IMG/VR virus record: IMGVR_UViG_3300002026_000069
Coordinates: 1 to 64,000 of that record
Length of the DNA: 64,000 bases
Direction: 5' to 3' (one strand)
From: a virus
Part shown: in pieces, positions 602 through 46,340 of the stretch
Layout: each line of letters begins with the position of its first letter
Position numbering within the stretch: the stretch's first letter is position 1
Notes under the pieces: model-generated
The model's database searches: none
Told to the model about the DNA's origin: nothing
Seen by the model: the letters and a program-made list of their open reading frames with translations, nothing else
Position numbers and translations under genes: made by a program

Positions 602-630
602 TCTCCTTAGTGGTCTTATACCTAAAAAAA
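602..630 (-). promoter_or_regulatory. Class E promoter plus SD
   Basis: TTTTTTT-AGGTATAAG-accac-TAAGGAGA on - strand; same layout at 8 other sites. Confidence 0.65.
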
Positions 631-661
631 CAAGCCCCTGACTATGATAGTCAGGGGCTTG
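631..661 (-). terminator. Intrinsic terminator of 690..1040
   Basis: CAAGCCCCTGACTA/TAGTCAGGGGCTTG inverted repeat followed by T7 on - strand. Confidence 0.8.
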
Positions 662-689
662 AACTTTTCCACTTAAGGAAGAGTTTAAA

Positions 690-1040
690 TCAAACAGCAG
701 CAGGCTCGTCATAGGCGATGTCAAGACCGCCATTCTTAGCCTTGCCAGCCTCGACCTTAACGGCATCGCCGCTGAAGTCGAACTTGCTTGCGCCAGTGGA
801 CTTCTGACGAACAGCCTTGATCTTGCGGCTCAGACCACGGACTTCGAAGCTCAGATCCTTGTTTTCGGGCTTCTGAGTCTCCTTGGTCGCGTGAGAGAGC
901 TTGGCGATCAGTTCAGCGGGTTCCGCCATAACATAGGTGCCATCGCTGAACAACACCACGAAAGTGTTGAAGTTCTTGGGCTGCGGGGCCTTACGAGCCT
1001 TACGAGCCTTAGCGGGAGCGGTAGCAGATGCATCAGCCAT
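690..1040 (-). CDS. Small basic protein with Ala/Lys/Arg-rich N-terminus, possibly DNA-binding
   Basis: AKARKARKA repeat; AAGGA SD; own promoter and terminator; GC-richer codons. Confidence 0.6.
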   Translation of the reverse strand: MADASATAPAKARKARKAPQPKNFNTFVVLFSDGTYVMAEPAELIAKLSHATKETQKPENKDLSFEVRGLSRKIKAVRQKSTGASKFDFSGDAVKVEAGKAKNGGLDIAYDEPAAV

Positions 1041-1109
1041 GGTTATATTCCTTAACCGGGTTTGTTGATAGCAGTGGCGGGTTTGGTTTGGTTTGCCACT
1101 GCGATAGAT

Positions 1110-1137
1110 ATATTAAAGATTATGAGCGAATCGTCAA
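1110..1137 (-). promoter_or_regulatory. Class L (sigma70-like) promoter
   Basis: TTGACG-16-TAATAT. Confidence 0.6.
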
Positions 1138-1213
1138 GAGTAAATCTTTTGGGGACCATTGACTGCCTTCAAAGACTTTGTACCAGAATAATATATTTTT
1201 TTTCTTTTTAGGG

Positions 1214-1241
1214 TTGACTAGGAACCAGTTTAGAATATTAT
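1214..1241 (+). promoter_or_regulatory. Class L promoter of the portal operon
   Basis: TTGACT-16-TATTAT. Confidence 0.6.
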
Positions 1242-1267
1242 AGAACATAAGTCAAGGGGTTAACCTT

Positions 1268-2194
1268 ATGGGTCTTGCTGGAATTATCTTCGATATCTAC
1301 GACGATGCAAACTACTCCGTCCTACGGGAAGGTGGTGAGAAGATTGCTTCGTGCAGCTTTGAGTCTTCAGAAAAGCTTTCTAAGCTTTCTGATTCAGCTT
1401 TCGCTGTAATCATCAAGACAGCGGAGGGTGATATACTAAGAAAGTATCCCCGACATACTCCTGACTCTATAAAGGTTTCGGCCTTCTACTTGAATAAAGT
1501 AAAGAACACTCTGCCTGAAAACATCAAAGTAGCTGCAATAGATGGATTAGTAAACAAAAAGACGAACTACGTAGATATGACAAAAGAACCCGTAGCTATA
1601 TCTAAGACTGCAAATTATGGACTAACTATTAATGGAAAGTCATACTTCCCATTAGATACGAAAGAACAAGTCAAAACAGCAGTTGCAACATTTAAATTAA
1701 CTTGCGATAAGCTTATACCAAGTGAACGCTACGAACTAGCTCAAAATATTATTAAAGTTGCTAGTGTTCATAATGTGGAACTAAACAACGATATTCATAA
1801 GTATTCATTAACTGAAGTTAGTAAGCTCGCTTGGCTACAAGGTGTAAAAGCCCGTCAGTCTGAATGTCTCGATAAAGAAAAGATTGCAGCACTCAAGGCG
1901 TACAAGCCAGAGTCAACTAAAAATGCCTTGTCTTTTCTCGCTGAGTTTGATAAAAATGCAGGGTTAACCAATAAGGTTCCAGATATCTACACATCAGTCT
2001 TTGCTGACGTTATGAAGATAGCTGGGTTAAAGGTTGCTTCAAAGAGTGATAAGATTAAATCAATTTCGGTTGATCTTATCAAAGAAGCTTACGGAAAGGA
2101 ATTTGCAGACGGATGGGCTTCTGATCCTGTAGCGGTGTATGAATCAATGCCCGTTCCAGTGAAAGAAGAGTTAGATGCAAGATTCCTTAAATAA
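1268..2194 (+). CDS. Putative head-internal or scaffold-associated protein, K-x-A rich
   Basis: About 10 K-[TIVL]-A motifs (EKIA, KTA, KVA, KLA); in portal operon. Confidence 0.5.
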   Translation: MGLAGIIFDIYDDANYSVLREGGEKIASCSFESSEKLSKLSDSAFAVIIKTAEGDILRKYPRHTPDSIKVSAFYLNKVKNTLPENIKVAAIDGLVNKKTNYVDMTKEPVAISKTANYGLTINGKSYFPLDTKEQVKTAVATFKLTCDKLIPSERYELAQNIIKVASVHNVELNNDIHKYSLTEVSKLAWLQGVKARQSECLDKEKIAALKAYKPESTKNALSFLAEFDKNAGLTNKVPDIYTSVFADVMKIAGLKVASKSDKIKSISVDLIKEAYGKEFADGWASDPVAVYESMPVPVKEELDARFLK

Positions 2195-2888
2195 TGAAGA
2201 AAGAATTCAGCAGGATAAAAAGAGAGCAATTAAGTTAGCTTTAAGTCTTCCTGCTGGACATATAACCTCAAAGACGCCGGTTGCTTTAGCAATCGCTGCT
2301 GCTTTAAAAAATCGCCCTTATAAAGAAGAGATTAAATCTGGTTCCGTAAGCTTAGATAATCTCTCTCCAATTGATCTTCATGGAACATTAGGTTCCATTC
2401 ATCCTGATTGGTATACATGGCTTCCAGAAACTATCTGGAATGAGTTTCCATGTAATAAGAATACAAAAGAAAAAATCAGAGCAGTTCAGACTGTAATTAC
2501 GACTCCAGATACGCAATTTGATGTAGATGCATTCAGTCACATACTAGAAGCCTTCAATGGACATATTCCAGACTGGTCCATCTTACATCCATTACCTTGC
2601 GAAGAGATTGTATATGGATGGAATCAATTAAAGTTAATCAGAAAAGATTTTGAGCTTTGGCCTGATGTTATCAATTACATTAAGGCATGCATGATGGAAG
2701 ATGGAGTTGTATATTTACCTTGGCTGGACATTGAGTTCACAAATGGAGTTGAATTCCCTCTAACAAACCTTAAGATTGTTTGGGACAAACTTAAGGATGC
2801 TACTTTGAAGATCAACATTGAAGATCCTTTGCATGTTCAGATTGCGAACTTGCAAGACATTGCTGCTTACCTTAAGGCAATGCCATGA
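2175..2888 (+). CDS. Hypothetical protein
   Basis: 237-aa ORF overlapping both neighbours. Confidence 0.7.
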   Translation: MQDSLNNEERIQQDKKRAIKLALSLPAGHITSKTPVALAIAAALKNRPYKEEIKSGSVSLDNLSPIDLHGTLGSIHPDWYTWLPETIWNEFPCNKNTKEKIRAVQTVITTPDTQFDVDAFSHILEAFNGHIPDWSILHPLPCEEIVYGWNQLKLIRKDFELWPDVINYIKACMMEDGVVYLPWLDIEFTNGVEFPLTNLKIVWDKLKDATLKINIEDPLHVQIANLQDIAAYLKAMP

Positions 2889-3634
2889 GTGCATATGGAT
2901 GCATCTATCTATTAACTAGTCCATCTGGCAAACATTATGTTGGTCAGACGATAGAGGATTTTGAATCGTATTTTCATACACAATATGTAGTTAGAAAAGG
3001 TTCTTGCAGAACCGCTCTATTCAATGCTATTAATAAGTACGGCATAGAAAATTTTACCAAGCAAGTTATCATAACTTGCATGACTAAAGAATCTTTGGAT
3101 CAGGCTGAGATAGATTCAATTAAAGAATACAATTCAATTGAGAATGGTTACAATATAAGAGAAGGAGGATCACATGGTAAGCATGCTCCGACTTCAAAGG
3201 TTTTCTCTGAAGAATATAGACAAAATATGAGTGAGATGATGAAGGGTAGAGTGTTTACGGAAGAGCATAAGCTTAAAATTAGCAATACATTAAAAAACAA
3301 TAAAATTGTTATTGAACAAATAACTAAACTAGGAAAATCCAATTCTGGAAAAGTCATTTCAGAAGAACAAAGATTACAAATTAGTAATACGCTAAAAGGA
3401 AATCAGAACGCATTTGGAAATAAATGGACAGAAGAGGCAAAGACTGCTTTTTCTAAGAAAAAAGAAGTTTATAACTATATTATAAAAGATCCAGACGGGA
3501 AAGAGCATCATTGCTCTAATCTAAAAAAGTTTTGTAGGGAGAATAATCTTCCGAAATCTAATCTTGTTATGGGAAAATATAAGGGTTGGATTCTCCTTTC
3601 TAAGATCATGTTAGATAAAGGAGAAGTTGTATGA
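2885..3634 (+). CDS. GIY-YIG homing endonuclease with NUMOD3-like repeats
   Basis: GCIY...HYVGQT, conserved E and GYN; SEEYRQNMS/TEEHKLKIS/SEEQRLQIS repeats. Confidence 0.9.
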   Translation: MSAYGCIYLLTSPSGKHYVGQTIEDFESYFHTQYVVRKGSCRTALFNAINKYGIENFTKQVIITCMTKESLDQAEIDSIKEYNSIENGYNIREGGSHGKHAPTSKVFSEEYRQNMSEMMKGRVFTEEHKLKISNTLKNNKIVIEQITKLGKSNSGKVISEEQRLQISNTLKGNQNAFGNKWTEEAKTAFSKKKEVYNYIIKDPDGKEHHCSNLKKFCRENNLPKSNLVMGKYKGWILLSKIMLDKGEVV

Positions 3635-8634: not shown

Positions 8635-8643
8635 GAGTGAATA

Positions 8644-14970: not shown

Positions 14971-14976
14971 ACACTT

Positions 14977-18422: not shown

Positions 18423-18734
18423 TTACTGGCTGCTGTTTATCGACTTCAGGCGATGTAGAATCTCCTGAAGTGTATCAACGGCAGGAAAAGAAGCGGCAGA
18501 ACATGTTATGTTTCTAACGACATCTACATCAAGCTTATGCTTGATGCAGAAATCTCTTGTTGTTCCTTTCCCAATCATGGGAAGAATCGTCTTCCTTATT
18601 TCCTCCCTAAGACGTTCCCTTATCTGCCTTTCTTCGATTTTTCTGAACCGATTTATTGCTAAATTTGCATCTTCAGGCAGGATGAGATCCTTGAAGTGAC
18701 ACTCCACATCATGATTTCTTGATCTTGATGGCAT
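18423..18734 (-). CDS. Hypothetical protein, possible C-terminal HTH
   Basis: Class E promoter and SD; TTRDFCIKHKLDVDVVRNI resembles an HTH. Confidence 0.6.
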   Translation of the reverse strand: MPSRSRNHDVECHFKDLILPEDANLAINRFRKIEERQIRERLREEIRKTILPMIGKGTTRDFCIKHKLDVDVVRNITCSAASFPAVDTLQEILHRLKSINSSQ

Positions 18735-18740: not shown

Positions 18741-18769
18741 TCTCCTTAGATATATTATACCTAAAAAAA
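18741..18769 (-). promoter_or_regulatory. Class E promoter plus SD
   Basis: T7-AGGTATAAT-atatc-TAAGGAGA. Confidence 0.65.
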
Positions 18770-18771
18770 GA

Positions 18772-18796
18772 ATCCCCAGGTTGTTAGCCTGGGGAT
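18772..18796 (-). terminator. Intrinsic terminator
   Basis: ATCCCCAGG/CCTGGGGAT hairpin with T tract on - strand. Confidence 0.75.
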
Positions 18797-18803
18797 CTTT
18801 GTT

Positions 18804-20340: not shown

Positions 20341-21315
20341 GTGTCTAAAATCCTCACATCAGCCGTACACCCCCTGGCCTTGCGCTCAGCCCTATCTTCG
20401 ATTTTAGCTACCGTAGAAACGCCGCGTGGGCCTACGGCGAAGGTACTACGACCCCTCATTCGTGAAGTGGCGATTGCTGGTCATGGGTGGGCTAGATCAT
20501 TCCTTGGAGGGATAACTAAAACAGCATTTAAAATTGGATCTTATGATGTAGAGGAAGATTTAGATAAGATGTTGGATACATTAAAGGCTACCACGAAGGA
20601 ACGTAGTTATGTTAAAACTACACTCCCTCACGGTGGGCCAAGAATCATACATGGTCATAACAGAACAGTTGCCCGTACAGCAACGATGAACATCTACTGC
20701 AAATCATCGTTGAAAGAATACAAAGAAGATGGGTTGACACATGTTAGGAGAATGGAAGTTCATGATGATCGTACATCGCCCATCTGTCGTGTTCTAAACG
20801 GTACGATTCATCGTATCGACAAATTGTTGTCTTACGAACTTCCACAAAGTCACGATAGCCATCCAAACTGTCGCGGGACCTTCGTACCGTTTTTTGACGT
20901 TGGAGGCTACAAACCAATACATCGTGACATAGCCACTAAGATCAATTTTCTCAAATACGAAAACGCACCAAGGGAATTCGAACCTTGGCTTCGTGGAATT
21001 AACAAGCATATTACTTTTAATAAAGTTGTTTTTACTCCCAAAGTTCAAGGCGCAAAGGTTGAGGGGAATTTACTGTTTCTTAATTTAATAGACGAAACTG
21101 ATCCCCGCGATGTTATCCTTGAAGAGGAAGCAAAAAAGGTTTTTGATCCAAAGAAATTTAAAGAACTTGAGACTATGACTGAAGCTGGATTAATTCATCC
21201 AGAGAAAACTCACGAGACTCCTCTTGAACATTTCAGTCATTTATTCGTAGCTTATAAGTTAAACCAACTAGAAGATCCTGTGATCTATAGATGGTTCAAA
21301 AATAACAAGTTATAG
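20341..21315 (+). CDS. MuF / SPP1 gp7-like head morphogenesis protein
   Basis: VART; D.RTSPICRVLNG; HPNCRG. Confidence 0.8.
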   Translation: MSKILTSAVHPLALRSALSSILATVETPRGPTAKVLRPLIREVAIAGHGWARSFLGGITKTAFKIGSYDVEEDLDKMLDTLKATTKERSYVKTTLPHGGPRIIHGHNRTVARTATMNIYCKSSLKEYKEDGLTHVRRMEVHDDRTSPICRVLNGTIHRIDKLLSYELPQSHDSHPNCRGTFVPFFDVGGYKPIHRDIATKINFLKYENAPREFEPWLRGINKHITFNKVVFTPKVQGAKVEGNLLFLNLIDETDPRDVILEEEAKKVFDPKKFKELETMTEAGLIHPEKTHETPLEHFSHLFVAYKLNQLEDPVIYRWFKNNKL

Positions 21316-21388: not shown

Positions 21389-21673
21389 GTGGTTTCCTTT
21401 TGCGAAGTGATAGTAACAATAATATATGTTACTGAATTTAAAATTCTATATCTATTTATTATATCATAAAATTAATCTTTAAAATTCAAAAAACATATGC
21501 GAAGAGTCCTGAGAAAAAACCCCTCACCCTCACCGCCAAAAACACACAGCCCTCCCAACTTCCCCCAACCTCGCACGCGATAAGAGACTTTTTAACTTTT
21601 TTACAGATAGATAGATTATTATTATTATTATTACATATGTATTGTAGTATTGTATTCGGAAGGGTATATTGAC

Positions 21674-21894
21674 GTAAATACGTATCTAATACTAGACTTA
21701 TGGATTGTGAGAATTTGTGAATCGATGTAAATACGTATCTAATACTAGAGTTACAGATTATTTTACCTTACTTAGAAAAGTCCAAAAACACCCAAAAGTT
21801 GTAAATACGTATATAATACTAGGCTTATGGCTTTTGAGAAATAGGGTCAAAACACAGGTTTATTGTCTTAAATACGTATCTACTACAAGACTTA
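21674..21894. repeat. Four ~27-bp imperfect direct repeats (iteron-like)
   Basis: gTAAATACGTATcTAaTACtAGacTTA at 21674, 21727, 21801, 21868. Confidence 0.85.
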
Positions 21895-22018
21895 CATGAC
21901 AAAAAGGCTATACGATACCCTGGAAGTCAAACCTACCTTTTTTCACAGGATATTGTGTGACACACTGACCTATTTCGTAAGTAAATATTTCATTACATAA
22001 CAAAAAATTTACTTCCCG

Positions 22019-22051: not shown

Positions 22052-25000
22052 ATGCAAGAACCGTCAGTGATGTACGCTGAGTTGAAAAAGAAGATAATTG
22101 ATTCAATTCAGGCTATCTTTCCTGTTGAAGGCAAGAAAAACGTAATCTCAATTGGAGATATAGTAGTTAATGATGTAGATCCAGGAAATTATAGAGAACA
22201 GATGGATCTTAAGGCTAAGGGTGGAACTTTAGCTTCTCCTATTAATGCAACTGTAACTTTGAAAGATAAAGTTACAAATAAAGTAATTAATCAAGCCAAG
22301 ATGAAAGTTGGATCAGTTCCCCGTGTAACTGATCGTGGATCATACATTGTTGATGGAAATGAATATCAAGTTCCACATCAGCTTTTACTTCGTCCAGGCA
22401 TCTTCCATCGCGTTAAGGAAAATGGAGAGCTAGAAGCCTTCATTAACGTTAAGGGATTCCAGGCTAAAATTCTTTTTGATCCTGAGAAGTCTGTTTTCTT
22501 ACTTAGCTATGGAACAAATAACATTCAGCTACTTCCGTTACTCGTTGGCTTAGGAGTAACTGAAGATCAATTCGTTAAGGCATGGGGTAAGGAAACCTAT
22601 GACTTAATGAAAAAGAATTCGAAGTCTGATCCAGAATCAGAATTAGCCAAGCTAAATAAAGCATCTAACGGTCGCGCAACAACAGATGCGATGGCTGTAA
22701 ATATGTGGCTCAAGTCTTGGAAACTTGATGATAGGGTCACGAAGAAGACCCTACAGGGTCAGACTGACATATCTCCTACAACATTATTAGCCAGTTCGGC
22801 TAAACTTCTTGAGATTAACAGAGGTCATAGCGAACAAGACGAACGTGACTCATTAGAGTTTAAGTCGATTCATAGCGTTGATGATTTCATTAAGAATCGT
22901 TTCGTTCAGAATGCAAATAAGATCAAGGGTAAGATTAAGACGAATCTCGACATTCGTGAGAATGTGAAGCAGATTGTTTCTTCTGGATTACTGAGTGATC
23001 CTGTTCATAGTTTCTTCGTAGAATCATCTTTATCCAACACCACTGAACAAACCAATCACCTAAACATGTTAGGTGAGACTAATAAGGTTATTATCACTGG
23101 TGAAGGTGGCATTGAGAATGATCATGCAATTACTGACCAAGCCCGCATGGCCCATCCTTCTCAGCTTGGTTTTATTGACCCTGTTCATACTCCTGAGAAG
23201 CTTGTCGGTGTAGCTCAGCATCTTTCTGTTTTAGCTCATAAAGAGAATAACGATCTCTATTCGTATGTGTACGATACGAAGTCTAAAGCAACAAAGAGAG
23301 TTAGAGTTGATGATATCTCTAACGCAACTGTAAGTTTCGCTGATCAGTTTGATAAGAATTACAAGCCTAAGACAGATCAGGTATCTGCATCTGTTAAGGG
23401 TAAGTTTGGAATGATCGACTCTAATAAAGTCGATTTCATTCTTATCTCTGATAAGACAATGTTTGACTTTGCTACGAATCTCAGTCCATTCTTGCCTTCT
23501 AACTCTGGAAACAGGGCAGCATTCGCTGGTAAGCAACTTGAGCAGGCTGTTATTCTCAAGCATCGTGAAGCTCCACTTGTTCAGACTGAAATGAAGGATG
23601 GAGTTACATTTGAACAGAATCTCGGTAAGAGCTTTGCTTTAACTTCAAGAGAAGATGGAATCGTAACTAAGGTTACGAAAGACTCTATCTTCATTGGTAA
23701 AGATGAACACTTCTTCTACGATCACTTTCCTTTAAGATCAAAGCAATATCTTCACCATACACCTGTCGTAAAGGTTGGAGATAAAGTTAAGAAGGGTCAA
23801 GTAATTGCTGAATCAAACAGCAATAAAGATGGCGCTCTTGCTTTAGGAACTAACTTAAATACTGCATATGTTTCATATAAGGGTTACACCTTTGAAGATG
23901 GTGTGACGATTACAGAGCATGCCTCTCATAGACTAACTTCTGAGCATATGTATAAAGAAGAGATGGATATTGATGCTAATTCCATTCTCGATAAGAAACG
24001 CTTCTTGGCTATCTATCCAAATAAGTTCACTGCAAAGCAGATGGAAAAGATTGGATCGGATGGAATTGTTAAAGAAGGACAGATTCTAGAAGTTGGCGAT
24101 CCGATTTGTGTACATCTTCACAAGGAAGATTATACGAAGGAAGATGTTATACTTGCAGCTTTCAGAAAATCTTCAATAAAGCCTTTCAAGGATCGTTCGC
24201 ATATCTGGTCTGAAGAAGACAAGGGTAAAGTTCTTCGTGTCTATAAGAAGGCTAAATCCATAGAGGTTCAGATTCTTACTGAAGAACCTATGAAGGTAGG
24301 AGATAAGCTTGCTGGTCGCCATGGAAATAAGGGAATTGTCGTTAAGATTATTCCTGACAATGAGGCTCTTCATACTGAAGAGGGTAAGCGCATTGATGTT
24401 TATCTCGACCCTCACGGCATTCCAGGTCGTATTAATCCTTCACAGAATCTTGAACTAGCCGCTTCGAAGATTGCTGAGCATGAAGGTAAGCCATTCGTTG
24501 TAGATAACTTCTCTGGAAGAAACTTCCTACATGAGATTGATGATAAGCTTGATAAGCTAAAGATTAAAGATAAAGAATATCTCATTGATCCAGTAAACGG
24601 AAATAAACTAGATGCCCCAGTTCAAACTGGTAAGCAGTTCATCTTAAAGCTTGATCACTCAGTTCGTAAGAAGTTCTCTGCTCGCGCACAGGATGGCTAT
24701 TCATCTGACTTAACTCCATTACAAGGTGGTGGAGTTGGTGGACAGTCGATTGATAAGCTTACTCTTTATAGTTTGTTAGCTCATGGAGCTAATCATAATC
24801 TCAAGGAGATGACGACATATAAAAGTGAAAAAAGTGATGACTTCTGGAATGCATATCAATCTGGCTTACCGCTTCCTCCACCTAAAGTTCCATTTGTATT
24901 TGAAAAGTTTAGAGCAATGCTTGCGGCTTCTGGAGTGAATCTTCAGAAGAATGGTTCTAATATAGATTTAATTCCTGTTACAGAGCGACATGTAAAAGAG

Positions 25001-28000
25001 ATGTCGCATGGAGCTATCAACTCTCCATACTTAGTAAGAGCTAAAGATCTAGCCCCTGAAAAAGGCGGATTATTTGATACACCAAATCCTGACGCATGGA
25101 TGCATATTGAGCTTAATGAGCCAATGCCTATGCCGATGTATGAAGAAGCGATTCTTGCTCTGACTGGTCTGCGTAAAGCTGATCTTGATGCCATACTAAG
25201 TCATCAGAAGTTTGTTCTTGCTAACGGAGAGATATCTGAGGATGAAACAAAAGGAATCTCTGGAGGCAAGGGACTTAAGAGAATTCTTGATTCACTAGAT
25301 CTTGATGTAGAAAGAATTAAGCTTACGGCTCTAGCTAAGAAGGCTGAAGGTTCTGAGCTTGATAAGATCAATCGTAAACTTAAGTATATTATAAATCTCA
25401 AGAAGAATGATCTAAAGTTGTCAGACTACATGACAACGAAGATTCCTGTTATTCCAACAAAGTTTAGAACCATTATCGAACAGAAGAATGGCTCAATCAT
25501 CACACCAGATGTGAACCAGCTTTATGCTGATATCATCAAGGTGAATAACCAACTTGGTAATATCGGACATCTTCCTGATTCAGAGAAGGCAAACCTACGC
25601 AAAGATCTCTATCAGGGCATGAAGGCTCTGGTTGGAACTGGCGATGCATTAACTAAAAAGGGAAGCCGTGATTGGAAAGGATTCGTTAAACAGATTGCCG
25701 GATCAAGTCCTAAATTTGGATTCTACCAACACAAGGTTATTTCTAAGCGCCAGGATTTTACCGGACGTTCGACTATTATTCCCGAACCAGAATACGGACT
25801 TGATGAAGTCGGAATTCCATTCGACATGGCATGGGAGATTTATCGTCCCCACGTTATTAAAGCCCTTGTTCGTCTCGGTTACAAGCCCATTGATGCGCGT
25901 AACGCAGTAGAAGAGAGAACTGAGATAGCCAAGCGTGCATTAGAGAATGAAGTCAAGGAACGTCCAGCGATTATCAATCGTTCGCCATCGCTACATAAGT
26001 TTAGCGTTATGGCTTTCCAACCGAAGTTAATCGAAGGCAAGGCTATTAAGATTAATCCTCTCGTTGTTGGCGGATTCAACGCTGACTTCGATGGCGATAC
26101 AATGTCTGTACATGTTCCTGTGTCAGAAGAAGCTCGTAAAGAAGCTTTCTTGATGATGCCTTCGAATAACTTGTTTAATCCACAAAGCAATTCTCTGGAA
26201 CATAAGCCATCCAAAGAACAAGTCAGCGGGCTTTACATGCTGACGCTACCACCTGTGTCAGTAACACCTAAGAAGGTTTACAACAACATCTCTGAGCTAA
26301 AATCTGACTATAAAGCTCTTAAAGTTAGTGTCAGAGATGTTGTTGTTGTAAATAAAGTTGTTAATACTGTTGGCCGTCATCTAGCTAATGATTCATTGCC
26401 AGCTAAGTATCAATCTAAAGATATTGTATTAGATAAGAAGGGGCTATCTACATTATTAGATAAAATAGCTCATGATGATCCAAAAGATTACGGCCCAATC
26501 GTTTCAAGACTCAAGGATCTTGGAAACGCAGCTTCTTACTCTTCTGGAGTGAGCTTTGGCATTAAAGATCTTCGCTTAGCCAATCCGAATATCATCAAGA
26601 ATGAGTTCCTTCGTATGGAGAAGGAACTTATCAAGGCTAAAGATCCTGTTAAGTGGGTTCAGGACTTCGCAGCTAAGGATATGAAAGATTCTATTATCCT
26701 TAAAGAGGTTCACAAGGATCTTAAGGATAAAGATTCTGGACTCTATCATCTCGTTCAATCTTCTCTATCAGGCAAGAAGAACCAAGTCGAACAGATGCTT
26801 GCTGGTCCAATGTTCGTTACTGACCACAATGGCGAACCAGTTCCAGTTCTTATCAAGAACTCATACGCTGACGGATTATCTGCTTCAGAATACTGGACAA
26901 CGATGGCTGGTGTTCGTAAGGGCATGATGGATCGTGCGCTTGAAACCATGGACACTGGTGCTTTCTCTAAGGAAGTTATTAACTCTGGATTATATGGAAA
27001 GATAACAGAGAAGGATTGTGGAACAGACGAAGGTATCTCTGTATCAATTAAAGATAAAGCCGTTCATTATCTTGATCGCTTTACAGCTAAGGGAAATGCT
27101 GGAATTAAAGTAAATACCTTAGTTACTAAAGAATTACTAAAAACATTTAAAGGTGAATTCATTAGAGTTCGTTCGCCTCTAACATGCAAGGCCAGAACAC
27201 AGCCATGTGCTATGTGCTTTGGATTAAAAGAGAACGGCAAGCTTCCTGATGTTGGTGACAATATTGGTGTAACCGCCGCTCAATCACTTGCTGAGCCTTC
27301 CGTTCAGCTTGGTATGAGAACTTTCCACTCTGGCGGTGCAGTTGGAGCGCAAAGCATCTCTGGATTCGATAGAGCTAAGCAGCTTGTTGAATTACCAAAG
27401 ATTGTTCACGACAAAGCTGCATTAGCTGAAAGCTCTGGAACAGTATCGAAAGTCTCAGAAGCTCCACAGGGAGGCCATTACATCTCTGTTGGAGGAAATG
27501 TTCAGTTCTCTATGATGAAACCAATCGTCAAAGAAGGCGATAAGGTAAAGAGAGGCGATGCTCTTTCATTAGGAAACATCAAGCCTCAAGTTCATTAGGA
27601 AACATCAAGCCTCAAGAACTTGCTGAACTCAAGGGAACGCTTGATGCGAAGCAGTATATCGTTAATGAAGTTGTTAAGCTCTACGAAGATGCTGGAAGAA
27701 CTATTCGCCGTCCATTAGTAGAGACTGCCATTGGTCAGGTGATTCGTTACGCTCAAGTCGTTGATCCAGGTGATAGCGAAACAACCATTGGTGATTACTT
27801 ACCAGTGAATGAGATTGAGTTTAGGAACAGAACTCTTAAGAAGAAGATCACTTACAAGGAAATGGTGAAGGGAATCACTTACAAGGAAATGGTGAAGGGA
27901 ATTGGCCTTGCACCATTCATGCATAATGACTTCCTTGCTCGCTTGAACTTTGAGAGAATTCCCGAAGTCATTCAGAGGGGCGCTGCACAAGGATGGAAGT

Positions 28001-28128
28001 CCGAACTTTCAGGAACGCATCCTATACCTGGATATGCATTTGGAGCAGAATTTAATCAATTACCTACGGCTGGAGCTAAACTTCCAGAGAAGAAGGTAGA
28101 AATGCCAATTCTATTCAAGAAGAAATAA
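22052..28128 (+). CDS. rpoBC: Single-chain fused beta-beta' DNA-directed RNA polymerase (~2010 aa; frame broken at 27565-27616 by a 26-bp duplication)
   Basis: Beta: GSYIVDGNE, HPSQLGFIDPVHTPE, GYTFED, GDKLAGRHGNKG, PHGIPGRIN, KLDH..KKFSAR. Beta': KRQDFTGRSTI, NRSPSLH, catalytic NADFDGD, DCGT, RSPLTC..CAMCFG, AAQSLAEPSVQLGMRTFH. Deleting one repeat copy joins 22052 to 28128 in frame. Confidence 0.95.
27565..27616 (+). repeat. Exact 26-bp tandem duplication, frameshifting
   Basis: TTCATTAGGAAACATCAAGCCTCAAG x2. Confidence 0.95.
27847..27900 (+). repeat. Exact 27-bp tandem duplication, in frame
   Basis: ATCACTTACAAGGAAATGGTGAAGGGA x2 (ITYKEMVKG x2). Confidence 0.95.
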
Positions 28129-31330: not shown

Positions 31331-31331
31331 C

Positions 31332-31952: not shown

Positions 31953-33197
31953 TCAGTGGTCCTGATTCTCATGAGCCTTGGAAGTGTTCTCCAAGCCCAC
32001 CTGGATTGCGGACATTATACCCACAATTTTTTGGGCGATTTCCGTTTCGAAGTTCAAGGCGATCTTCAGCTTGGTAGCTGCGTACTCCAATTGCTTCGAA
32101 ATGATCATGTGCAGCTTGCGTGAGCAATCGGGCTGATTCATGATGAGTTCAGCCTTTTCGACACACTCAAGAGCATCCTGTTCGTTCATGATGCGCTTGT
32201 CCATCATCCACTTGGCTTTGGCGATGTTATACATGCGGCGCATGTGTAACAGCGTCTGGTCGCCATAGCAGTCTTTGTCGATGAACATGCCGTTAAAATT
32301 GTTTGATACGGAAAAGAGATTCCTATCGACACGAAGCTCCTTCATCTTCGTAGCGAGTCCCTTTGCCCAATCATGGACCTTGAGGCGATACTTCTTGGTT
32401 CCTATGGTATAGATCTTACCATCGTACTCAGCCTTCGTTCCATATGGCTGTCTGTCCAAGATTTCGCTGAAAGTTCCCGTATTCCAGTCCTGATGGGCAT
32501 GAATCTCTTCGGAACCGACATTGATGATCAGCTTCCCGTTAACACGGCTGATGGAATCAATGTCTCTCTTCGGCCACACACGCGGCATGTGATCCTCTTC
32601 GAAGTACATCCCACTGTTCAGAAGGCCCTGAAGGTAGCCTCCGAACTCAGCCTTCAATGGCTTGATGATCTTCTCGTTGCACTCACGGCAGTATCCAGGA
32701 ACACCGTGAAACAGAGGAACCTTCTTCACTTCTCCACAGCAACGGCACTTGCCCTCTGCGAAGTTCTTGGCGCGTTCCAAATCCATGAGGCGAATTGAAG
32801 CGCGAGCGGGAATCGACACAGACTTTTCAAGCTGAATCGATTCCTTGTTGACCTTGAGGATCTTGACGCGAGTGTTATCAAACAGCGCCGAAATGTCAGC
32901 GTGCGTTGCCGAAACGAGATCACCAATAAATGGAATCTCATTTGAGCAGATTGGCTCCTTGAGCCGAACGATAGCCACAACATGGCTATCCATTCTGATA
33001 TCCGCTTTGAATGATCCTTCCTTGAAATCATTCACAGTACCATCCACTTCCAGATGGATGATTCTTTCGACCTTCTCGTTCTCAGTGATAACAAAAGGCT
33101 TCCTACGCACGATGGCACGAGCATCGACATCACTTGTCGATTCGTTTACCAGATTTTTTACTTGATCAGCGAAGCGTTCAACGAGGTTCATTTGCAT
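31953..33197 (-). CDS. Hypothetical protein with a CxxC...CxxC zinc ribbon
   Basis: CRCC...CREC; GC-richer than flanks; class E-like motif at 33253-33261. Confidence 0.7.
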   Translation of the reverse strand: MQMNLVERFADQVKNLVNESTSDVDARAIVRRKPFVITENEKVERIIHLEVDGTVNDFKEGSFKADIRMDSHVVAIVRLKEPICSNEIPFIGDLVSATHADISALFDNTRVKILKVNKESIQLEKSVSIPARASIRLMDLERAKNFAEGKCRCCGEVKKVPLFHGVPGYCRECNEKIIKPLKAEFGGYLQGLLNSGMYFEEDHMPRVWPKRDIDSISRVNGKLIINVGSEEIHAHQDWNTGTFSEILDRQPYGTKAEYDGKIYTIGTKKYRLKVHDWAKGLATKMKELRVDRNLFSVSNNFNGMFIDKDCYGDQTLLHMRRMYNIAKAKWMMDKRIMNEQDALECVEKAELIMNQPDCSRKLHMIISKQLEYAATKLKIALNFETEIAQKIVGIMSAIQVGLENTSKAHENQDH

Positions 33198-33282
33198 CCC
33201 GACGGGATAGAGTGTTCAATGGGTGGTATTCGACTTGAATACCTTCAGAAATATTATATCATAATACTTAGGGAACTTTTTT

Positions 33283-34707: not shown

Positions 34708-34708
34708 C

Positions 34709-36030: not shown

Positions 36031-36067
36031 CGTTAGTTACTAATATAAATCAGCGAGACAAAATACC

Positions 36068-40433: not shown

Positions 40434-40469
40434 ATTTACTTCGCTTGTCTAACATCTACTATATAGTAG

Positions 40470-41306: not shown

Positions 41307-41318
41307 CAGGAACCAATC

Positions 41319-41786: not shown

Positions 41787-41901
41787 GATAAAGCATGCTA
41801 TCGCTAAGATAGCTGCTTTTAAGCTTAAAGCACCGGAAAAGAAACCGGAACAGACTCCAACACCTGTTCCGGCTATTGCTCCAACGAATGTCCCACCTTG
41901 A
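41755..41901 (+). CDS. Possible 48-aa peptide (not in ORF track)
   Basis: GTG start; ...IKHAIAKIAAFKLKAPEKKP...; resembles the IEDAIEKIA leader. Confidence 0.35.
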   Translation: MQLQHQPPLLKIKHAIAKIAAFKLKAPEKKPEQTPTPVPAIAPTNVPP

Positions 41902-41931
41902 ATGGTGGGATTTTTCGTTTAGTATGTATTC

Positions 41932-43467
41932 GTGAAGCCATCTACCCTTGCTCAAAAGATGTTGTCCCTTAAGGGTGGACCTTTAGACCTGAGAGGCAGA
42001 CCATATCTCAAAGATGTATATGATTCAGATGCACAGAGAGTTCTCTTAAAGTTTGGCCGTCAGTCTGAAAAGTCTACTACTTTAAGTGCTAAAATAACAT
42101 TAAATACAGCGTGCATCCCATACTTTAATACGCTGTTCGTTTCGCCTTCAGCTTCTCAGACGAAAGACTTTAGTAATGATCGTCTAAATCAGTTCATGAA
42201 GAATAGTGATTATATTGTAGATAATCTATTCGACCAAACATGTACTGATAGAGTAGATCAAAAGTCTCTTTTAAATGGTTCGAATGTATATCTGAGATAT
42301 GCATTCCATAACGCTGACAGAACCCGTGGTATATCTGCTGATCAGGTAGTTCTTGATGAGCTTCAAGATATTCGAACTGATAATATTTCGGTTATTGAAG
42401 AATCTGCGTCTCACTCTGAGAGAGGTTTAAAGGGTCATCCATATAAGTCTTTCATCTTCGCAGGCACTCCTAAGACTACGAATAACTCAATGGAGTTCTT
42501 TTGGCGTAGATCCTCAATGCGTGAGTGGGGTATTAAATGCGAAGGTTGCGGACATTGGGCATTAGAACTCTCTACAAAGAACATTGGTAAAGAGTATCTT
42601 ATATGCGAGAAATGCGGACATAGACTATATCCTCAAACTGGACGCTGGATTATCACGAATCCAGGTGCAGCTATTGAAGGATATCATATTTGTCAGTTAG
42701 CCGTTCCTTGGCTTGATTGGCAAAAAGACATTCTATTCAAATTAAATACCTATCCTCAGAATCGTTTCTATAACGAGGTTCTCGGGCTATCATACGATAG
42801 CGGTTCTAAGCCGTTAACCATGGCTCAACTTCGTCAATGCTGTAATCCTGATCGTAAGGATTGGTGGAAGCATGATGAAGGATATATACCAAGACCTTTG
42901 TTTGCTGGGATAGATTGGGCTTTAACAGCAGAGAAGTCCTTTACTATCCTAACCATAGGCGCTTGGCTTCCATTCCCTGAGAAGTTTGTTATTCTCTATC
43001 AGAAGAAGTATGAGGCTAATCTAGACCTACTCCAGCAAATTGAAGATATTAAGCTCGTTTGCGACCAATACGGCGTAGATCTTATTGGAGCGGATTGGGG
43101 TGCTGGTGTTCATAGTAACTTAAAGCTTATTGAACACTTCGGTTCCGATAGGGTTGCTCAGTATTATAACTCTGGATCTCAGAAGAACCGCATTCAGTGG
43201 AATGATAAGCGTCAGATGTTTACGATTAGCAGAACAACGGTAATGACAGATTTGTTTAACTATATACAAAAGTCTCGTATTGAATGGCCAGCATATGAAG
43301 TCTGTCAGGGATTCCTAACTGACTTCCTGAATGAAGATATCGAATACAATAAAGATGGTGTATTGTATTACGATCACAATCCAGATAGTCCTGATGATGC
43401 TATTCACTCGACTATGTATTGTATGTTAGCTGGAGAACTATTCTATACGAATAGGGGTAATAGCTAA
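41932..43467 (+). CDS. terL: Terminase large subunit
   Basis: Walker A GRQSEKST, Walker B VVLDE, coupling motif GTPK, CxxC..CxxC, nuclease GIDW and PDDAIH; TTGAAT-16-TAGTAT leaderless promoter. Confidence 0.92.
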   Translation: MKPSTLAQKMLSLKGGPLDLRGRPYLKDVYDSDAQRVLLKFGRQSEKSTTLSAKITLNTACIPYFNTLFVSPSASQTKDFSNDRLNQFMKNSDYIVDNLFDQTCTDRVDQKSLLNGSNVYLRYAFHNADRTRGISADQVVLDELQDIRTDNISVIEESASHSERGLKGHPYKSFIFAGTPKTTNNSMEFFWRRSSMREWGIKCEGCGHWALELSTKNIGKEYLICEKCGHRLYPQTGRWIITNPGAAIEGYHICQLAVPWLDWQKDILFKLNTYPQNRFYNEVLGLSYDSGSKPLTMAQLRQCCNPDRKDWWKHDEGYIPRPLFAGIDWALTAEKSFTILTIGAWLPFPEKFVILYQKKYEANLDLLQQIEDIKLVCDQYGVDLIGADWGAGVHSNLKLIEHFGSDRVAQYYNSGSQKNRIQWNDKRQMFTISRTTVMTDLFNYIQKSRIEWPAYEVCQGFLTDFLNEDIEYNKDGVLYYDHNPDSPDDAIHSTMYCMLAGELFYTNRGNS

Positions 43468-43491
43468 AGAAAGGCGCTCATGCGCCATGGT

Positions 43492-43716
43492 TCAATCAAC
43501 CATTCCTTCATTGGACTGAAGGAATTCAATCTCAGCCTGAGATACCTCGACATGTTGATTGTCGATCATCTCTTCAGAGATACTAGGATCTCCTTCTTCC
43601 TGCTTCTTGAGCATATCAAGCAACTTCTTCGATTCCATCACATAGGCATTCCACTTTGGTGTGGTTGCATCTGTGAGATCAACCCCGATGATATCGGGGC
43701 ATTGGATTTCAGACAT
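43492..43716 (-). CDS. Small acidic protein
   Basis: Class E promoter and SD at 43724-43745. Confidence 0.7.
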   Translation of the reverse strand: MSEIQCPDIIGVDLTDATTPKWNAYVMESKKLLDMLKKQEEGDPSISEEMIDNQHVEVSQAEIEFLQSNEGMVD

Positions 43717-43763
43717 GGTTATGTCTCCTTATTAGTATTATACCTCATAGCTAAAAAAGACAC

Positions 43764-44075
43764 TCATGGGAGTGTCCTAGCCTTCAATATGGCTTCGAAT
43801 GTCTTTTGGTATTCAGACTTATTCTTGTCTTCTTCCTCTTCCCACTTCATATCTTTGAATGCTTCTTTTATCAAATAATACTGGCATATAGCATTCGCTA
43901 TACCCAAAGCGATACTAGCAACAGCAAATCCGGTCAAGAACCTATCTGCCGCTACATTGGATTCATAAGCATTATGAATGCTATTGAATTCATTTAAAGT
44001 TGATATAGACTTGTTTATTTGAATTCCACGTAGCGTTGTATCAAGACGCATTGGAATCATTGGTTGATATGTCAT
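43764..44075 (-). CDS. Small single-TM protein (start moved to MTYQP)
   Basis: AGGTATAAC motif 6 nt before ATG; FLTGFAVASIALGIANAI. Confidence 0.6.
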   Translation of the reverse strand: MTYQPMIPMRLDTTLRGIQINKSISTLNEFNSIHNAYESNVAADRFLTGFAVASIALGIANAICQYYLIKEAFKDMKWEEEEDKNKSEYQKTFEAILKARTLP

Positions 44076-44094
44076 ATGGATGTTATACCTAAAA

Positions 44095-44156
44095 AACATC
44101 AACCGTGCCTCAGTATTGCTACTGAGGTCACTTTAAACCTTTCGGTGGTTGATGTT
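44095..44156 (-). other. Three-way-junction RNA structure or terminator
   Basis: AACATCAACC/GGTTGATGTT closing stem, ACC-GAAA-GGT and CCTCAGTA-GCAA-TACTGAGG hairpins, then T tract. Confidence 0.55.
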
Positions 44157-44166
44157 CTCCTTGGCC

Positions 44167-44382
44167 TTACTTCTTCAGTTCGGCCAACTCCTGCTTCAGC
44201 TCTTCCAGGTAGCTCTTGCGCTTGATCTTGTTGATCTCGCGTTCGATCTCCCGGATCTCCTTCTGTTCCTCGTCTTCCTGCTTCTTCTTCTCGATCTGCT
44301 CTTTCACGACCTCGGAACCCGCCACCAACATGGCGGCGAGGCTGGTCATGCAGAGGTTCTGGAACTCGCGCTCCTTGGACAT
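44167..44382 (-). CDS. Small coiled-coil protein with hydrophobic N-terminus
   Basis: Class E promoter and SD at 44391-44412. Confidence 0.7.
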   Translation of the reverse strand: MSKEREFQNLCMTSLAAMLVAGSEVVKEQIEKKKQEDEEQKEIREIEREINKIKRKSYLEELKQELAELKK

Positions 44383-44424
44383 GTTAATGCCCTCCTTACT
44401 ATTCTTATACCTAAAAACAACCCC

Positions 44425-44745
44425 CTATTTGGGGGTCATCTTCAGCCGACAGATTTGCCTCAATAACTCGTGACTTGAGTTTTCGATGACAAATCCTGGG
44501 AAGTTCTCCCAATCGGCTATATCGACCTCCATCAAGAACTTGATAGCCAGTTCTATGACTTCAATCTGATATTCCTGGTCTAGAGAAACCAAGAAATCCA
44601 GATGCGGAATCTGTCTCTCAACCATATTGAAATCATCCATCTCAAGATGACGCTTCTTGGCTTTCGCCAGCGTATTCTTAAGAAGAATAATCTTCGCACC
44701 CCGTAAACAGGCGATGGTGCCGATGATCGCCCCTAGCCCTAGCAT
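44425..44745 (-). CDS. Small protein with N-terminal TM
   Basis: Class E promoter and SD at 44752-44773. Confidence 0.7.
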   Translation of the reverse strand: MLGLGAIIGTIACLRGAKIILLKNTLAKAKKRHLEMDDFNMVERQIPHLDFLVSLDQEYQIEVIELAIKFLMEVDIADWENFPGFVIENSSHELLRQICRLKMTPK

Positions 44746-44774
44746 AAATTTTCTCCTTAGTTATATTATACCAT

Positions 44775-45960
44775 ATGGAAAAGAAGTCATTCTTGGGCGG
44801 ATTGTTTATGAAGTCCGGTCTTCATCAGGCTGCAAACTTTGGATTGAGAAGGCTTGGTTGGGGTAAACATTACTACACTGGATCTTCTGCCGCTGGAATA
44901 AGGGCTGCATTAACTGGAAAAGCTCACTTTCCAACTATAAGAAGAACTATTGGAGGTATAGCTCCAGATTTAACTGGATTAAGCGATTATGAGTTATCTA
45001 AAGGATTAACAGAAGCAGCTAAGCATCATATAAGTAAAGCATCAAAAGGTAAAGTTTCACACGAAGATATCATTCATATGTTGGGTGGAAAGACAAACCT
45101 TCCAAAAGACAGAATAGAGCTTTTAGATAAGCTTAAGCAGAATAAAGAATTAAAGATGCATTTTAGTGGATTAGGTGTTAATCCACAATCCGTACTTGGG
45201 AAAAACCTAAAGGGCGGTATTGAGAAGTTCAAAAAGGAAGGTTTAGAACCTAAACGTGGTGCTATAGGAAGATTCTTTAGAAAATACGCTAAGGGACAAG
45301 ATAAGCAAAAAGAGCTATTTACAGAACCAATTGCTCAATTATCTCTAGGTCAAATTCCAACAACTTCAGTAATTAGTAGCGGAGCAACCCATGCGGCAAA
45401 TAAAGGATTCACTTCTCCTATATTAGCTGCCAAGGGTCATGTAATGGAGTCCGGGATACGCTGATGTTGCTAGAGCGAAGAGATCTTATCTTGATAAAAT
45501 GAAGGATAAAGGAATTTCAACAATAGGAACAATTGATCCTGCTGTGTCTGAATTTAAAGATTTAGGAAGAGATTTCGGAAGAGCGGATTTAGCAGCTAGA
45601 AAGAAAGTAATTCTTGCTAATCAAGCTTTATTACATAAAGCAAAGGGATTAGGTCTATCTAAGCAGGAATTACTAAATAAGTATAAAGAAGCTAAATCAA
45701 TAATACCAGAATCAGCTAATGATCCAATCAGACAAGGCATTCTCGGATACAGGAAAGGATATAGAGCAGTAAGGGAATTTATACCTAAGATTCAACCAAT
45801 GAAAACTGAAATTACAAATATAATAAATAACGCTCAAAGAGATATATCTGTTAATGCTAGATTGGCATATAGGAAAGCTAGAGGGGCTGTAGGGGATGCT
45901 TATAGTAATACTACGTCATTAGCTAAAAAAGGATACGATAGGTTGATGGGTAATAGTTAG
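44775..45960 (+). CDS. Lys-rich putative virion protein split by a 1-nt frameshift near 45452
   Basis: Removing one G from CCGGGA gives ...VMESGYADVARAKRSYLDKM..., joining both ORFs (394 aa). Confidence 0.55.
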
Positions 45961-45961
45961 A

Positions 45962-46025
45962 ACACTCCATGAAGGAGTGCCGACAAACTCGTTAAGCATC
46001 CTTTCGGGTAGCTGTTGAGCTTGTC
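45962..46025 (-). other. Structured 3' RNA element (two hairpins)
   Basis: GACAAGCTC/GAGTTTGTC stem capped by CC-GAAA-GG, then CACTCC/GGAGTG hairpin. Confidence 0.45.
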
Positions 46026-46040
46026 TGATTTGTTCGCCGG

Positions 46041-46190
46041 TCAGGGCTTCTTGGCGGCAGCGTGGGCCGCCAGCACCGCCGCCTGTTCGGCGTTGGGCTT
46101 GGTGACGAAGTACGTGACGAGGCTTCCCGTCACCGCGCCAGCCACGAAGCCAGCGGAGAAAGCCTGAACCGGGGTGAGGCTGCTGAGCAT
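46041..46190 (-). CDS. 49-aa single-TM protein (start moved to MLSSL)
   Basis: AAGGAGG SD; AFSAGFVAGAVTGSLVTYFV; class E motif at 46251-46259. Confidence 0.7.
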   Translation of the reverse strand: MLSSLTPVQAFSAGFVAGAVTGSLVTYFVTKPNAEQAAVLAAHAAAKKP

Positions 46191-46340
46191 GCTGATATCC
46201 TCCTTCAAGGACGAGAACCCATGATCTTCTGGATCACTTTCTCTAAATATATTATACCATTTGGAGGGTCCTTTTTCCCTTAAAGTGTCCCTGTGCAGGG
46301 ACATATTGATTTTAGGCTTCTTATCTATACTATGTTTCAT

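What the first reader, a model, noticed from the sequence alone, without database searches (positions are those of the whole stretch)
602..46259. Class E promoter WGRTATAAN-5nt-TA heads the minus-strand islands
Seen on the - strand at 615-623, 18754-62, 21458-66, 33253-61, 43737-45, 44082-90, 44404-12, 44765-73 and 46251-59. In five cases exactly 5 nt separate the motif from TAAGGAG, so the mRNA would start at the SD. No consistent -35 is visible. The last T of TATAAT, nearly invariant for sigma70, is G or C in three copies, while GRTATAA is fixed. Inference: this is a phage-specific early promoter, plausibly read by the fused RNAP.
Basis: partly seen in the sequence, partly recalled or inferred. 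Interest (0 to 1): 0.75.

Follow-up and report, generated by a model that had tools for sequence, protein, structure and literature searches.

The report
Phage-family promoter GGTATAA(G), often fused to terminators
The motif is real: GGTATAA, then six bases, then TA, is the -10-like core of a promoter that this phage shares with distant relatives (including Salmonella phage Arash), so it most likely serves the phage's own transcription machinery rather than the host's.

Summary
Seven share the core GGTATAA-N6-TA (7 hits against 1.2 expected). The other two, at 21458 and 33253, are TATGATATAAT, a canonical extended -10 of a different type.

GGTATAA occurs 17 times on the minus strand of the 100-kb contig and never on the plus strand. 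It is the joint top 7-mer in the contig's intergenic DNA.

The same core shows the same strand exclusivity in relatives whose RNA polymerases are 38-64% identical:
- G001: 43 against 4
- Salmonella phage Arash: 40 against 1
- G002 (GGTATAAG): 15 against 0
- G006: 14 against 1
- 47 family loci pooled: 55 against 22

T(-1)/R(+1) is kept at fixed spacing. The "-7" base is mostly G, not T, so this is not a sigma70 -10 box.

The contig is only about 55% complete. Its closest relative carries two sigma genes in the missing part. One is the ortholog of Arash gp10, which was found in virions together with the RNA polymerase.

Best reading: a lineage-specific promoter for non-structural genes, read through a phage sigma, probably with the fused RNA polymerase. 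The enzyme and the timing are inferred, not shown. In this phage five copies abut intrinsic terminators, forming cassettes like the PeSL (promoter-early stem-loop) units of T4-type phages. Other notes of this scan on the same genome had already seen the terminator junction and the cassettes.

The parts
615..623 (-). Class E core AGGTATAAG. Next come 5 nt, TAAGGAG (603-609) and ATG at 595, heading ORF 2-595, which runs off the contig end.
   Evidence: matrix score 22.7
631..661 (-). 14-bp G+C-rich hairpin followed by T7, the intrinsic terminator of gene 690-1040. Its T-run continues directly into the core at 615-623.
   Evidence: fold -27.6 kcal/mol
18754..18762 (-). Class E core AGGTATAAT. Next come 5 nt, TAAGGAG (18742-18748) and ATG at 18734, heading ORF 18423-18734.
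   Evidence: matrix score 18.4
18771..18797 (-). Terminator hairpin plus T7 that runs into the core at 18754-18762.
   Evidence: fold -18.6 kcal/mol
43737..43745 (-). Class E core AGGTATAAT. Next come 5 nt, TAAGGAG (43725-43731) and ATG at 43716, heading ORF 43492-43716. That ORF ends at its own terminator, 43473-43486.
   Evidence: matrix score 12.4
43757..43778 (-). Terminator hairpin plus T6, 11 nt upstream of the core at 43737-43745.
   Evidence: fold -16.6 kcal/mol
44082..44090 (-). Class E core AGGTATAAC. The conserved T-A, 6 nt after the core, opens an in-frame ATG at 44075, which predicts a leaderless mRNA for ORF 43764-44075. A hairpin lies at 44108-44127 and a T6 run abuts the core.
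   Evidence: matrix score 23.2; the frame was read from the sequence
44404..44412 (-). Class E core AGGTATAAG. Next come 5 nt, TAAGGAG (44392-44398) and ATG at 44382, heading ORF 44167-44382. A hairpin at 44420-44436 plus T5 abuts the core.
   Evidence: matrix score 21.5
44765..44773 (-). Class E core TGGTATAAT, which also fits TRTGnTATAAT. Next come 5 nt, TAAGGAG (44753-44759) and ATG at 44745, heading ORF 44425-44745. This is the head of the four-cassette island that follows the large terminase gene (41932-43467, plus strand).
   Evidence: matrix score 13.3
46251..46259 (-). Class E core TGGTATAAT, followed by a leader of about 55 nt, GAAGGAGG and ATG at 46190, heading ORF 46041-46190.
   Evidence: matrix score 12.3
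33253..33261 (-). TATGATATAAT, a different type (canonical extended -10, GA instead of GG, no downstream TA). It lies 55 nt before ORF 31953-33191, back to back with a plus-strand TTGAAT-N16-TATCAT promoter. The G001 ortholog of that ORF is preceded by TGTGATATAAT-N5-TA.
   Evidence: below 9 bits with the class E matrix
21458..21466 (-). TATGATATAAT in an A+T-rich non-coding stretch beside four iteron-like repeats. No ORF follows it. Its membership and function are doubtful.

Best explanation
GGTATAA(N)-N5-T-A is the -10-like core of a promoter class specific to this phage lineage. The lineage comprises phages of about 100-190 kb that encode a fused beta-beta' RNA polymerase.

Reading of the core. 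It is G(-14) G(-13) T A T A A N(-7), with transcription starting at the purine 7 nt after the hexamer. In this contig that start is either the first A of TAAGGAG or the A of a leaderless ATG.

What it drives. It drives the non-structural genes: small orphan ORFs, tRNA genes and, in relatives, nucleotide-metabolism genes. These genes lie on the strand opposite the virion genes.

What is inferred. Recognition is through a phage-encoded sigma70-family factor. The best candidate is the ortholog of Arash gp10, which has regions 2.3-3.0 and a C-terminal helix-turn-helix motif and is packaged in virions. It would be bound to the virion-packaged fused RNA polymerase, which would make these early promoters.

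Local arrangement. In this phage and in G001 the core is often welded to the T-run of the preceding intrinsic terminator. The result is self-contained terminator-promoter-SD-ORF cassettes set antisense within the late operons.
For: Shown in this contig.
- The pattern is non-random and confined to one strand.
- GGTATAA is the joint top intergenic 7-mer in G000 and the top one in G001 and Arash.
- At five sites the only DNA between a terminator and the SD is this motif, so it must supply the promoter.

Shown in relatives.
- A matrix trained only on G001 finds 12 hits on the minus strand of G000 and 1 on the plus strand at 12 bits or more.
- Strand counts of the core are 43:4 in G001, 40:1 in Arash, 15:0 in G002 for GGTATAAG, 14:1 in G006 and 55:22 over 47 loci, where control words show no such bias.
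- The motif is depleted on the late strand in each genome (0, 4 and 1 observed against 5-19 expected). That fits a short motif that is sufficient on its own.
- T(-1) is kept in 29 of 35 and R(+1) in 35 of 35 sites from other relatives, and likewise in Arash.
- Two predicted leaderless starts place +1 exactly on the A of ATG: G000 44075, and G001 upstream of the ortholog of 690-1040.
- The base at '-7' is G in 30 of 39 Arash sites and T in 1. It is T in 5 of 43 sites in G001 and 6 of 17 in G000.
- In Arash the sites sit 18-35 nt before annotated starts of ribonucleotide-reductase operon genes, tRNA genes and orphan ORFs.

Sigma link.
- G001 encodes two sigmas, one with regions 2 and 4 and one with region 3.
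- The second is 37% identical to Arash gp10 (E 2e-23).
- Mass spectrometry found gp10 in Arash virions together with the polymerase beta and beta' proteins (PMC10585845).
- Orthologs occur across the family.
Against: - There are no transcription start-site, timing or biochemical data for any member of the family.
- G000 itself has no sigma gene on the 100 kb available, so the sigma link rests on relatives.
- Several family members that keep a gp10-like sigma lack the motif: G003, G004, G005 and Vibrio phage D69. The sigma-to-motif assignment is therefore not proven.
- The motif keeps G(-14) and often T(-15), so some copies (TGGTATAAT at 44765 and 46251) could also be used by a host housekeeping sigma as extended -10 promoters.
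- About 40% of GGTATAA copies lie inside ORFs and may be silent.
Confidence: 0.6

Rival explanations
1. These are host-dependent extended -10 promoters. The host housekeeping sigma holoenzyme reads G(-14) plus TATAAN without a -35 element, as it reads TGnTATAAT promoters. The motif would then be shared among relatives only because the -10 consensus is universal.
For: The core contains TATAA and an invariant G at -14. T(-15) is present in 6 of 17 G000 sites, 23 of 39 Arash sites and 18 of 35 other sites. The sites at 44765, 46251, 33253 and 21458 are perfect TGnTATAAT.
Against: T(-7) is one of the two bases that sigma70 region 2 flips out and binds (PMC7598289). Here it is T in only 1 of 39 sites in Arash, 5 of 43 in G001 and 6 of 17 in G000, with G preferred. 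G(-13) is invariant, which sigma70 does not require. The 7-mer is strongly avoided on the opposite strand. The same motif is kept in genomes of 36-61% G+C with different hosts. The upstream element in relatives is A-rich or TCCAAAA-like, not TTGACA.
Confidence: 0.15
2. The motif is read by a phage sigma bound to the HOST core RNA polymerase, in the manner of T4 gp55 or SPO1 gp28. It could also be read by the other phage sigma, the one with regions 2 and 4. In either case it would be a middle-class rather than an immediate-early promoter.
For: Two phage sigmas exist in G001. The region 2+4 sigma lies on the motif-bearing strand, about 500 nt downstream of an AGGTATAAT site. Phage sigmas that redirect the host core are well established; that statement is from memory.
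Against: In Arash the region-3-bearing sigma travels in the virion with the phage polymerase. The region 2+4 sigma resembles RpoD and RpoS closely (E 7e-38). It fits better the second promoter class, TTGAnn-N16-TAnnnT, seen before the virion genes.
Confidence: 0.2
3. It is not a promoter. The motif would instead be an RNA-level signal, such as a processing or stability site at the 5' end of cistrons, or a protein-binding or recombination site that marks cassette borders.
For: The motif is orientation-specific, sits in leaders and is tied to terminator hairpins and cassette borders.
Against: Genes that follow a strong intrinsic terminator need a promoter, and no other candidate fits in the 15-25 nt available. 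The motif also precedes tRNA genes and operon heads that have no hairpin. Its sequence and its spacing to a conserved pyrimidine-purine step are those of a -10 element and a start site.
Confidence: 0.05

Closest known systems
Early promoters of jumbo phages with virion multisubunit RNA polymerases (phiKZ, AR9 and relatives)
   Same: [quoted passage not shown] The polymerase is carried in the virion; in this family that is known only for Arash.
   Different: Those polymerases are split into several subunits and have no sigma (PMC7824862). Here beta and beta' are fused, sigma70-family genes are present, and the motif looks like a modified bacterial -10 box.
Bacterial extended -10 promoters (TGnTATAAT)
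   Same: No -35 is needed. There is a G at -14, a TATAA hexamer, and a start about 7 nt downstream.
   Different: G(-13) is invariant. The -7 base is mostly G rather than T. T(-15) is optional. The motif follows the phage lineage rather than the host and is avoided on the late strand.
PeSLs, the composite terminator/early-promoter motifs of T4-type phages (PMC2839356, PMC4122927)
   Same: A stem-loop terminator lies directly next to an early-type promoter, and the unit is repeated around small variable ORFs. The island after the large terminase gene holds 4 cassettes here and 10 cassettes at the syntenic place in G001. None of the four G000 cassette ORFs has a homolog anywhere in G001.
   Different: The promoter sequence is different and is presumably read by the phage's own machinery. 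Recombination at these motifs was not tested, because no close relatives were available.
T4 late promoters (TATAAATA, gp55/gp33/gp45). This comparison is from memory.
   Same: A single -10-like element without a -35, read through a phage-encoded member of the sigma family.
   Different: The sequence differs. T4 uses the host core polymerase, and that motif serves late virion genes. Here the virion genes are on the other strand and carry TTGAnn-N16-TAnnnT.

Membership tests
sigma70-type extended -10 promoter read by the host housekeeping sigma | TG at -15/-14 | tested here: inconclusive
   G(-14) is invariant by construction of the anchor. T(-15) is present in 6 of 17 sites in G000, 15 of 43 in G001 and 23 of 39 in Arash.
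sigma70-type extended -10 promoter read by the host housekeeping sigma | T at -7, the last base of the hexamer, is conserved | tested here: not met
   T is present in 6 of 17 sites in G000, 5 of 43 in G001 and 1 of 39 in Arash. G is the preferred base in G001 and Arash and in most GGTATAA sites shown from the other relatives.
sigma70-type extended -10 promoter read by the host housekeeping sigma | Initiation by host holoenzyme alone | not testable with these tools
   This needs in vitro transcription or a rifampicin time course.
Lineage-specific promoter of a phage-encoded transcription system (virion-polymerase early-promoter type) | A conserved motif near -10, upstream of non-structural operons, in one orientation | tested here: met
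Lineage-specific promoter of a phage-encoded transcription system (virion-polymerase early-promoter type) | The motif follows the phage lineage across different hosts and base compositions | tested here: met
   It is present in G000, G001, G002, G006, Arash and several loci of 36-61% G+C. It is absent from G003-G005 and Vibrio phage D69.
Lineage-specific promoter of a phage-encoded transcription system (virion-polymerase early-promoter type) | The polymerase and its specificity factor are present in the virion | not testable with these tools
   The only evidence is from the literature on Arash: the beta and beta' proteins and the gp10 sigma were found by mass spectrometry (PMC10585845). In G000 the polymerase gene sits among late genes behind a late-type promoter.
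Lineage-specific promoter of a phage-encoded transcription system (virion-polymerase early-promoter type) | Mapped start sites and early timing | not testable with these tools
   No transcript data are available. The start is inferred from the T(-1)/R(+1) conservation and from two leaderless ATGs.
PeSL-like composite terminator/promoter cassette | A stem-loop terminator directly adjoining the promoter | tested here: met
   Five of seven sites in the window and about ten sites in G001.
PeSL-like composite terminator/promoter cassette | The units flank variable small ORFs, and gene content differs between relatives at the same place | tested here: met
   Four orphan cassettes at 43492-44745 stand against ten cassettes at the syntenic G001 161-165.5 kb. 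The G000 cassette ORFs have no homolog in G001.
PeSL-like composite terminator/promoter cassette | Recombination breakpoints fall in the motifs | not tested
   This needs near-identical genome pairs.

The most novel reading that the evidence does not exclude
A large, mostly uncultured phage family injects a complete bacterial-type holoenzyme: a single-chain beta-beta' polymerase plus its own sigma70-family factor. This holoenzyme reads a private promoter, an A-rich element at -33 to -28 followed by TGGTATAAG and T(-1)R(+1), in which G replaces the T(-7) that sigma70 requires. A second phage sigma, made from such a promoter, then switches on the TTGAnn-N16-TAnnnT leaderless late genes. The terminator-promoter junctions double as portable cassette borders.
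Probability: 0.4. Interest if true: 0.78.

Novelty: new variant of a known kind. Interest (0 to 1): 0.6.

Why it matters
The result gives a concrete, testable promoter consensus for an uncharacterised but widespread phage family. More than 1,000 database proteins match the fused polymerase, and one member, Arash, is cultured. If the virion sigma reads the motif, this would be a virion polymerase that uses a sigma70-family factor, unlike phiKZ-type and N4 polymerases. It would also be a natural case of a sigma that accepts G at -7. The motif further lets early and late transcription units be annotated in metagenomic relatives.

Tried and rejected
- Megablast of 43-47 kb against the phage collection found nothing. 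A single-protein scan of IMG/VR also found nothing. A profile was needed to reach relatives.
The 83%-identical relative P0002 could therefore not be fetched.
- Pfam finds nothing in any island ORF, so the cassette genes remain orphans.
- Rfam finds nothing in the window.
- Sigma70 region 2 and region 4 models and tblastn with the G001 sigmas find no sigma in G000. This is explained by the missing ~72 kb, not by true absence.
- A literature search for the motif as a word returned only unrelated papers. No paper in the held library describes promoters of this family.
- An alternative register for Arash was considered, with TAAAGT as the -10 hexamer. It was rejected because G000 and G001 lack TA at those positions.
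- The reading that the motif is merely the tail of the terminator was rejected, because Arash and other relatives have the motif without hairpins.
Full report
**What the window is.** The window is the first 64 kb of a 100,160-bp IMG/VR viral contig (G000) of 39% G+C, which CheckV rates about 55% complete.
- The plus strand carries virion and packaging genes: the large terminase at 41932-43467, the major head protein at 53693-54844 and a Mu-F-like gene at 20341-21315.
- It also carries a fused beta-beta' RNA polymerase gene starting at 22052.
- The minus strand carries small islands inside this block and, beyond the window, a long arm (70.8-100 kb) of small ORFs and 13 tRNA genes.

**Checking the observation.**
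- The full pattern WGRTATAAN-N5-TA has 7 hits, all on the minus strand, against 1.22 expected.
- The five cases of GGTATAA-N6-TAAGGAG have an expectation of 0.00. Four sites read TTTTAGGTATAA against 0.03 expected.
- GRTATAA as such is not enriched. The informative core is GGTATAA: 17 copies on the minus strand of the contig and none on the plus strand, against 5-10 expected per strand.
- Ten of the 17 copies lie in the 12% of the contig that is intergenic, where GGTATAA ties for the top 7-mer.
- No -35 element is visible, and the two-hexamer sigma70 scan calls none of the sites.
- Five sites follow hairpins of -16 to -28 kcal/mol, and at four of them the T-run continues straight into the core.
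- The sites at 21458 and 33253 differ. They read TATGATATAAT (canonical TRTGnTATAAT), lack the downstream TA, and score below 9 bits with a matrix that recovers the other seven at 12-23 bits.

**Relatives.** The polymerase belongs to a very large family of fused proteins of about 2,000 residues from metagenomes.
- A profile search fetched 47 loci.
- The closest complete relative is G001: 184 kb, 64% polymerase identity, collinear with G000 but diverged at the DNA level. It has GGTATAA 43 times on the equivalent strand and 4 times on the other.
- At the place syntenic to 43.4-44.8 kb, G001 holds ten cassettes of the form hairpin-TTTT-AGGTATAAG-N5-TA...SD-ATG. None of the four G000 cassette ORFs has a homolog anywhere in G001.
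- Salmonella phage Arash (53% G+C, 39% polymerase identity) has 40 copies on one strand and 1 on the other. Thirty-one are intergenic, and they sit 18-35 nt before annotated gene starts or tRNA genes of the non-structural arm.
- G002 has GGTATAAG 15:0 and G006 has the core 14:1.
- Over the 47 loci the core is 55 on the strand opposite the polymerase gene and 22 on its strand, while control words show no such bias. Sites from loci of 36-61% G+C look alike.
- G003, G004, G005 and Vibrio phage D69 lack the bias.

**Anatomy of the family motif.** The numbering below takes the first G as position 0.
- Positions 0-6 are GGTATAA.
- Position 7 is G in 30 of 39 Arash sites and 19 of 43 G001 sites. T occupies it in only 1 of 39 Arash sites, 5 of 43 in G001 and 6 of 17 in G000.
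- Position 13 is T and position 14 is a purine in all sets. Among 35 sites from other relatives, position 13 is T in 29 and position 14 is a purine in all 35.
- Read as a -10 hexamer (TATAAN = -12 to -7), this puts T at -1 and a purine at +1.
- Two predicted leaderless genes place that purine exactly on the A of ATG: G000 44075 and the G001 ortholog of 690-1040.
- In this contig +1 otherwise falls on the first A of TAAGGAG. That strong SD occurs 9 times in the window, 8 of them on the minus strand and 5 joined to the motif.
- Arash and other relatives add a weak A-rich or TCCAAAA-like element at -35 to -28. G000 and G001 have a T-tract there instead.

**Who reads it (inferred).**
- Sigma70 region 2 flips out and binds A(-11) and T(-7) (PMC7598289). 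A motif that prefers G at -7, fixes G(-13), follows the phage lineage across hosts and is avoided on the late strand is unlikely to be a host housekeeping promoter.
- G000 has no sigma gene, but it lacks the ~72 kb that corresponds to G001 26-98 kb. In that stretch G001 encodes two sigma70-family proteins.
- One sigma has 268 residues with regions 2 and 4 and is very like RpoD and RpoS. It lies on the motif strand about 500 nt after an AGGTATAAT site.
- The other has 236 residues with regions 2.3-3.0 and a C-terminal helix-turn-helix motif. It lies on the late strand and is 37% identical to Arash gp10.
- Mass spectrometry found gp10 in Arash virions together with the polymerase beta and beta' proteins, which were among the most abundant proteins detected (PMC10585845). 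gp10-like genes occur across the family.
- In the alignment to RpoS, the residues matching the sigma70 melting aromatics and the TG-contacting Glu of region 3.0 are changed (my reading). This fits an altered -10 or extended -10 specificity.
- The virion genes, including the polymerase gene, carry a second promoter class, TTGAnn-N15/16-TAnnnT, which is often leaderless. That class suits the region 2+4 sigma.
- The resulting model is a cascade. A virion-delivered holoenzyme reads GGTATAA(G) promoters. The second sigma is made from one of them. Late promoters are then switched on. Every step of this model is inference.

**Rivals.** Four alternatives were weighed:
- host extended -10 use, which remains possible for the TGGTATAAT and TATGATATAAT copies;
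- a phage sigma on the host core polymerase;
- the other phage sigma;
- an RNA-level or recombination signal.

The last is unlikely, because genes behind strong terminators need a promoter and no other candidate fits in the space.

**Comparison with known systems.**
- The motif behaves like the early promoters of jumbo phages with virion polymerases, but it has sigma-type anatomy.
- The terminator-promoter junctions resemble the PeSLs of T4-type phages (PMC2839356, PMC4122927).
- No paper in the held library describes promoters of this family. The Arash paper does not mention promoters.

**Limits.**
- There are no transcript data.
- The contig is incomplete.
- Gene calls were made with a simple script of my own.
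- Other notes of this scan on the same genome had already recorded the terminator-promoter junction and the antisense cassettes. I re-tested both.

Noticed in passing
window 27590-27740: The fused polymerase gene is not one open frame. Relatives align in frame 2 up to about 27660 and in frame 1 from about 27592 to 28125. So there is a frameshift near 27.6 kb, which could be an assembly error or a programmed shift. The gene starts at ATG 22052, 6 nt after TTGAAA-N15-TATAAT, which predicts a leaderless mRNA.
   Followed up: partly
window 21674-21907 (with an (AAT)n run near 21620): Four copies of a 40-nt iteron-like repeat (GTAAATACGTATCTAATACTAG...), spaced 53-74 nt apart, lie in the 700-nt non-coding gap before the polymerase gene. 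This could be an origin of replication or an operator array.
   Followed up: partly
window, whole: TAAGGAG occurs 9 times, 8 of them on the minus strand and 5 joined to class E cores. Plus-strand virion genes use weak AGGA-type SDs or are leaderless behind TTGAnn-N16-TAnnnT.
   Followed up: partly
G000 beyond the window: 82905-82913, 94642-94650, 78646-78654, 88934-88942 (minus strand): Further class E cores lie here. AGGTATAAT sits just before tRNA-Lys, AGGTATAAC sits just after tRNA-Asn, and two more lie in the early arm.
   Followed up: partly
G001 (L048 1177-1983 plus strand; L049 1045-1755 minus strand): Two sigma70-family genes lie in the region of the closest relative that is missing from this contig.
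   Followed up: yes
Arash OQ632216 at about 26.7, 66.4, 100.2, 138.5 and 173.3 kb: A repeat of about 100 bp or more, containing three TATATAA boxes, occurs five times, spaced 33-40 kb apart around the genome.
   Followed up: no
window 1712-1720 and 45778-45786 (minus strand): GGTATAA cores lie antisense inside plus-strand genes. The one at 1719 scores 17.3 bits. They could be internal antisense promoters or silent copies.
   Followed up: no
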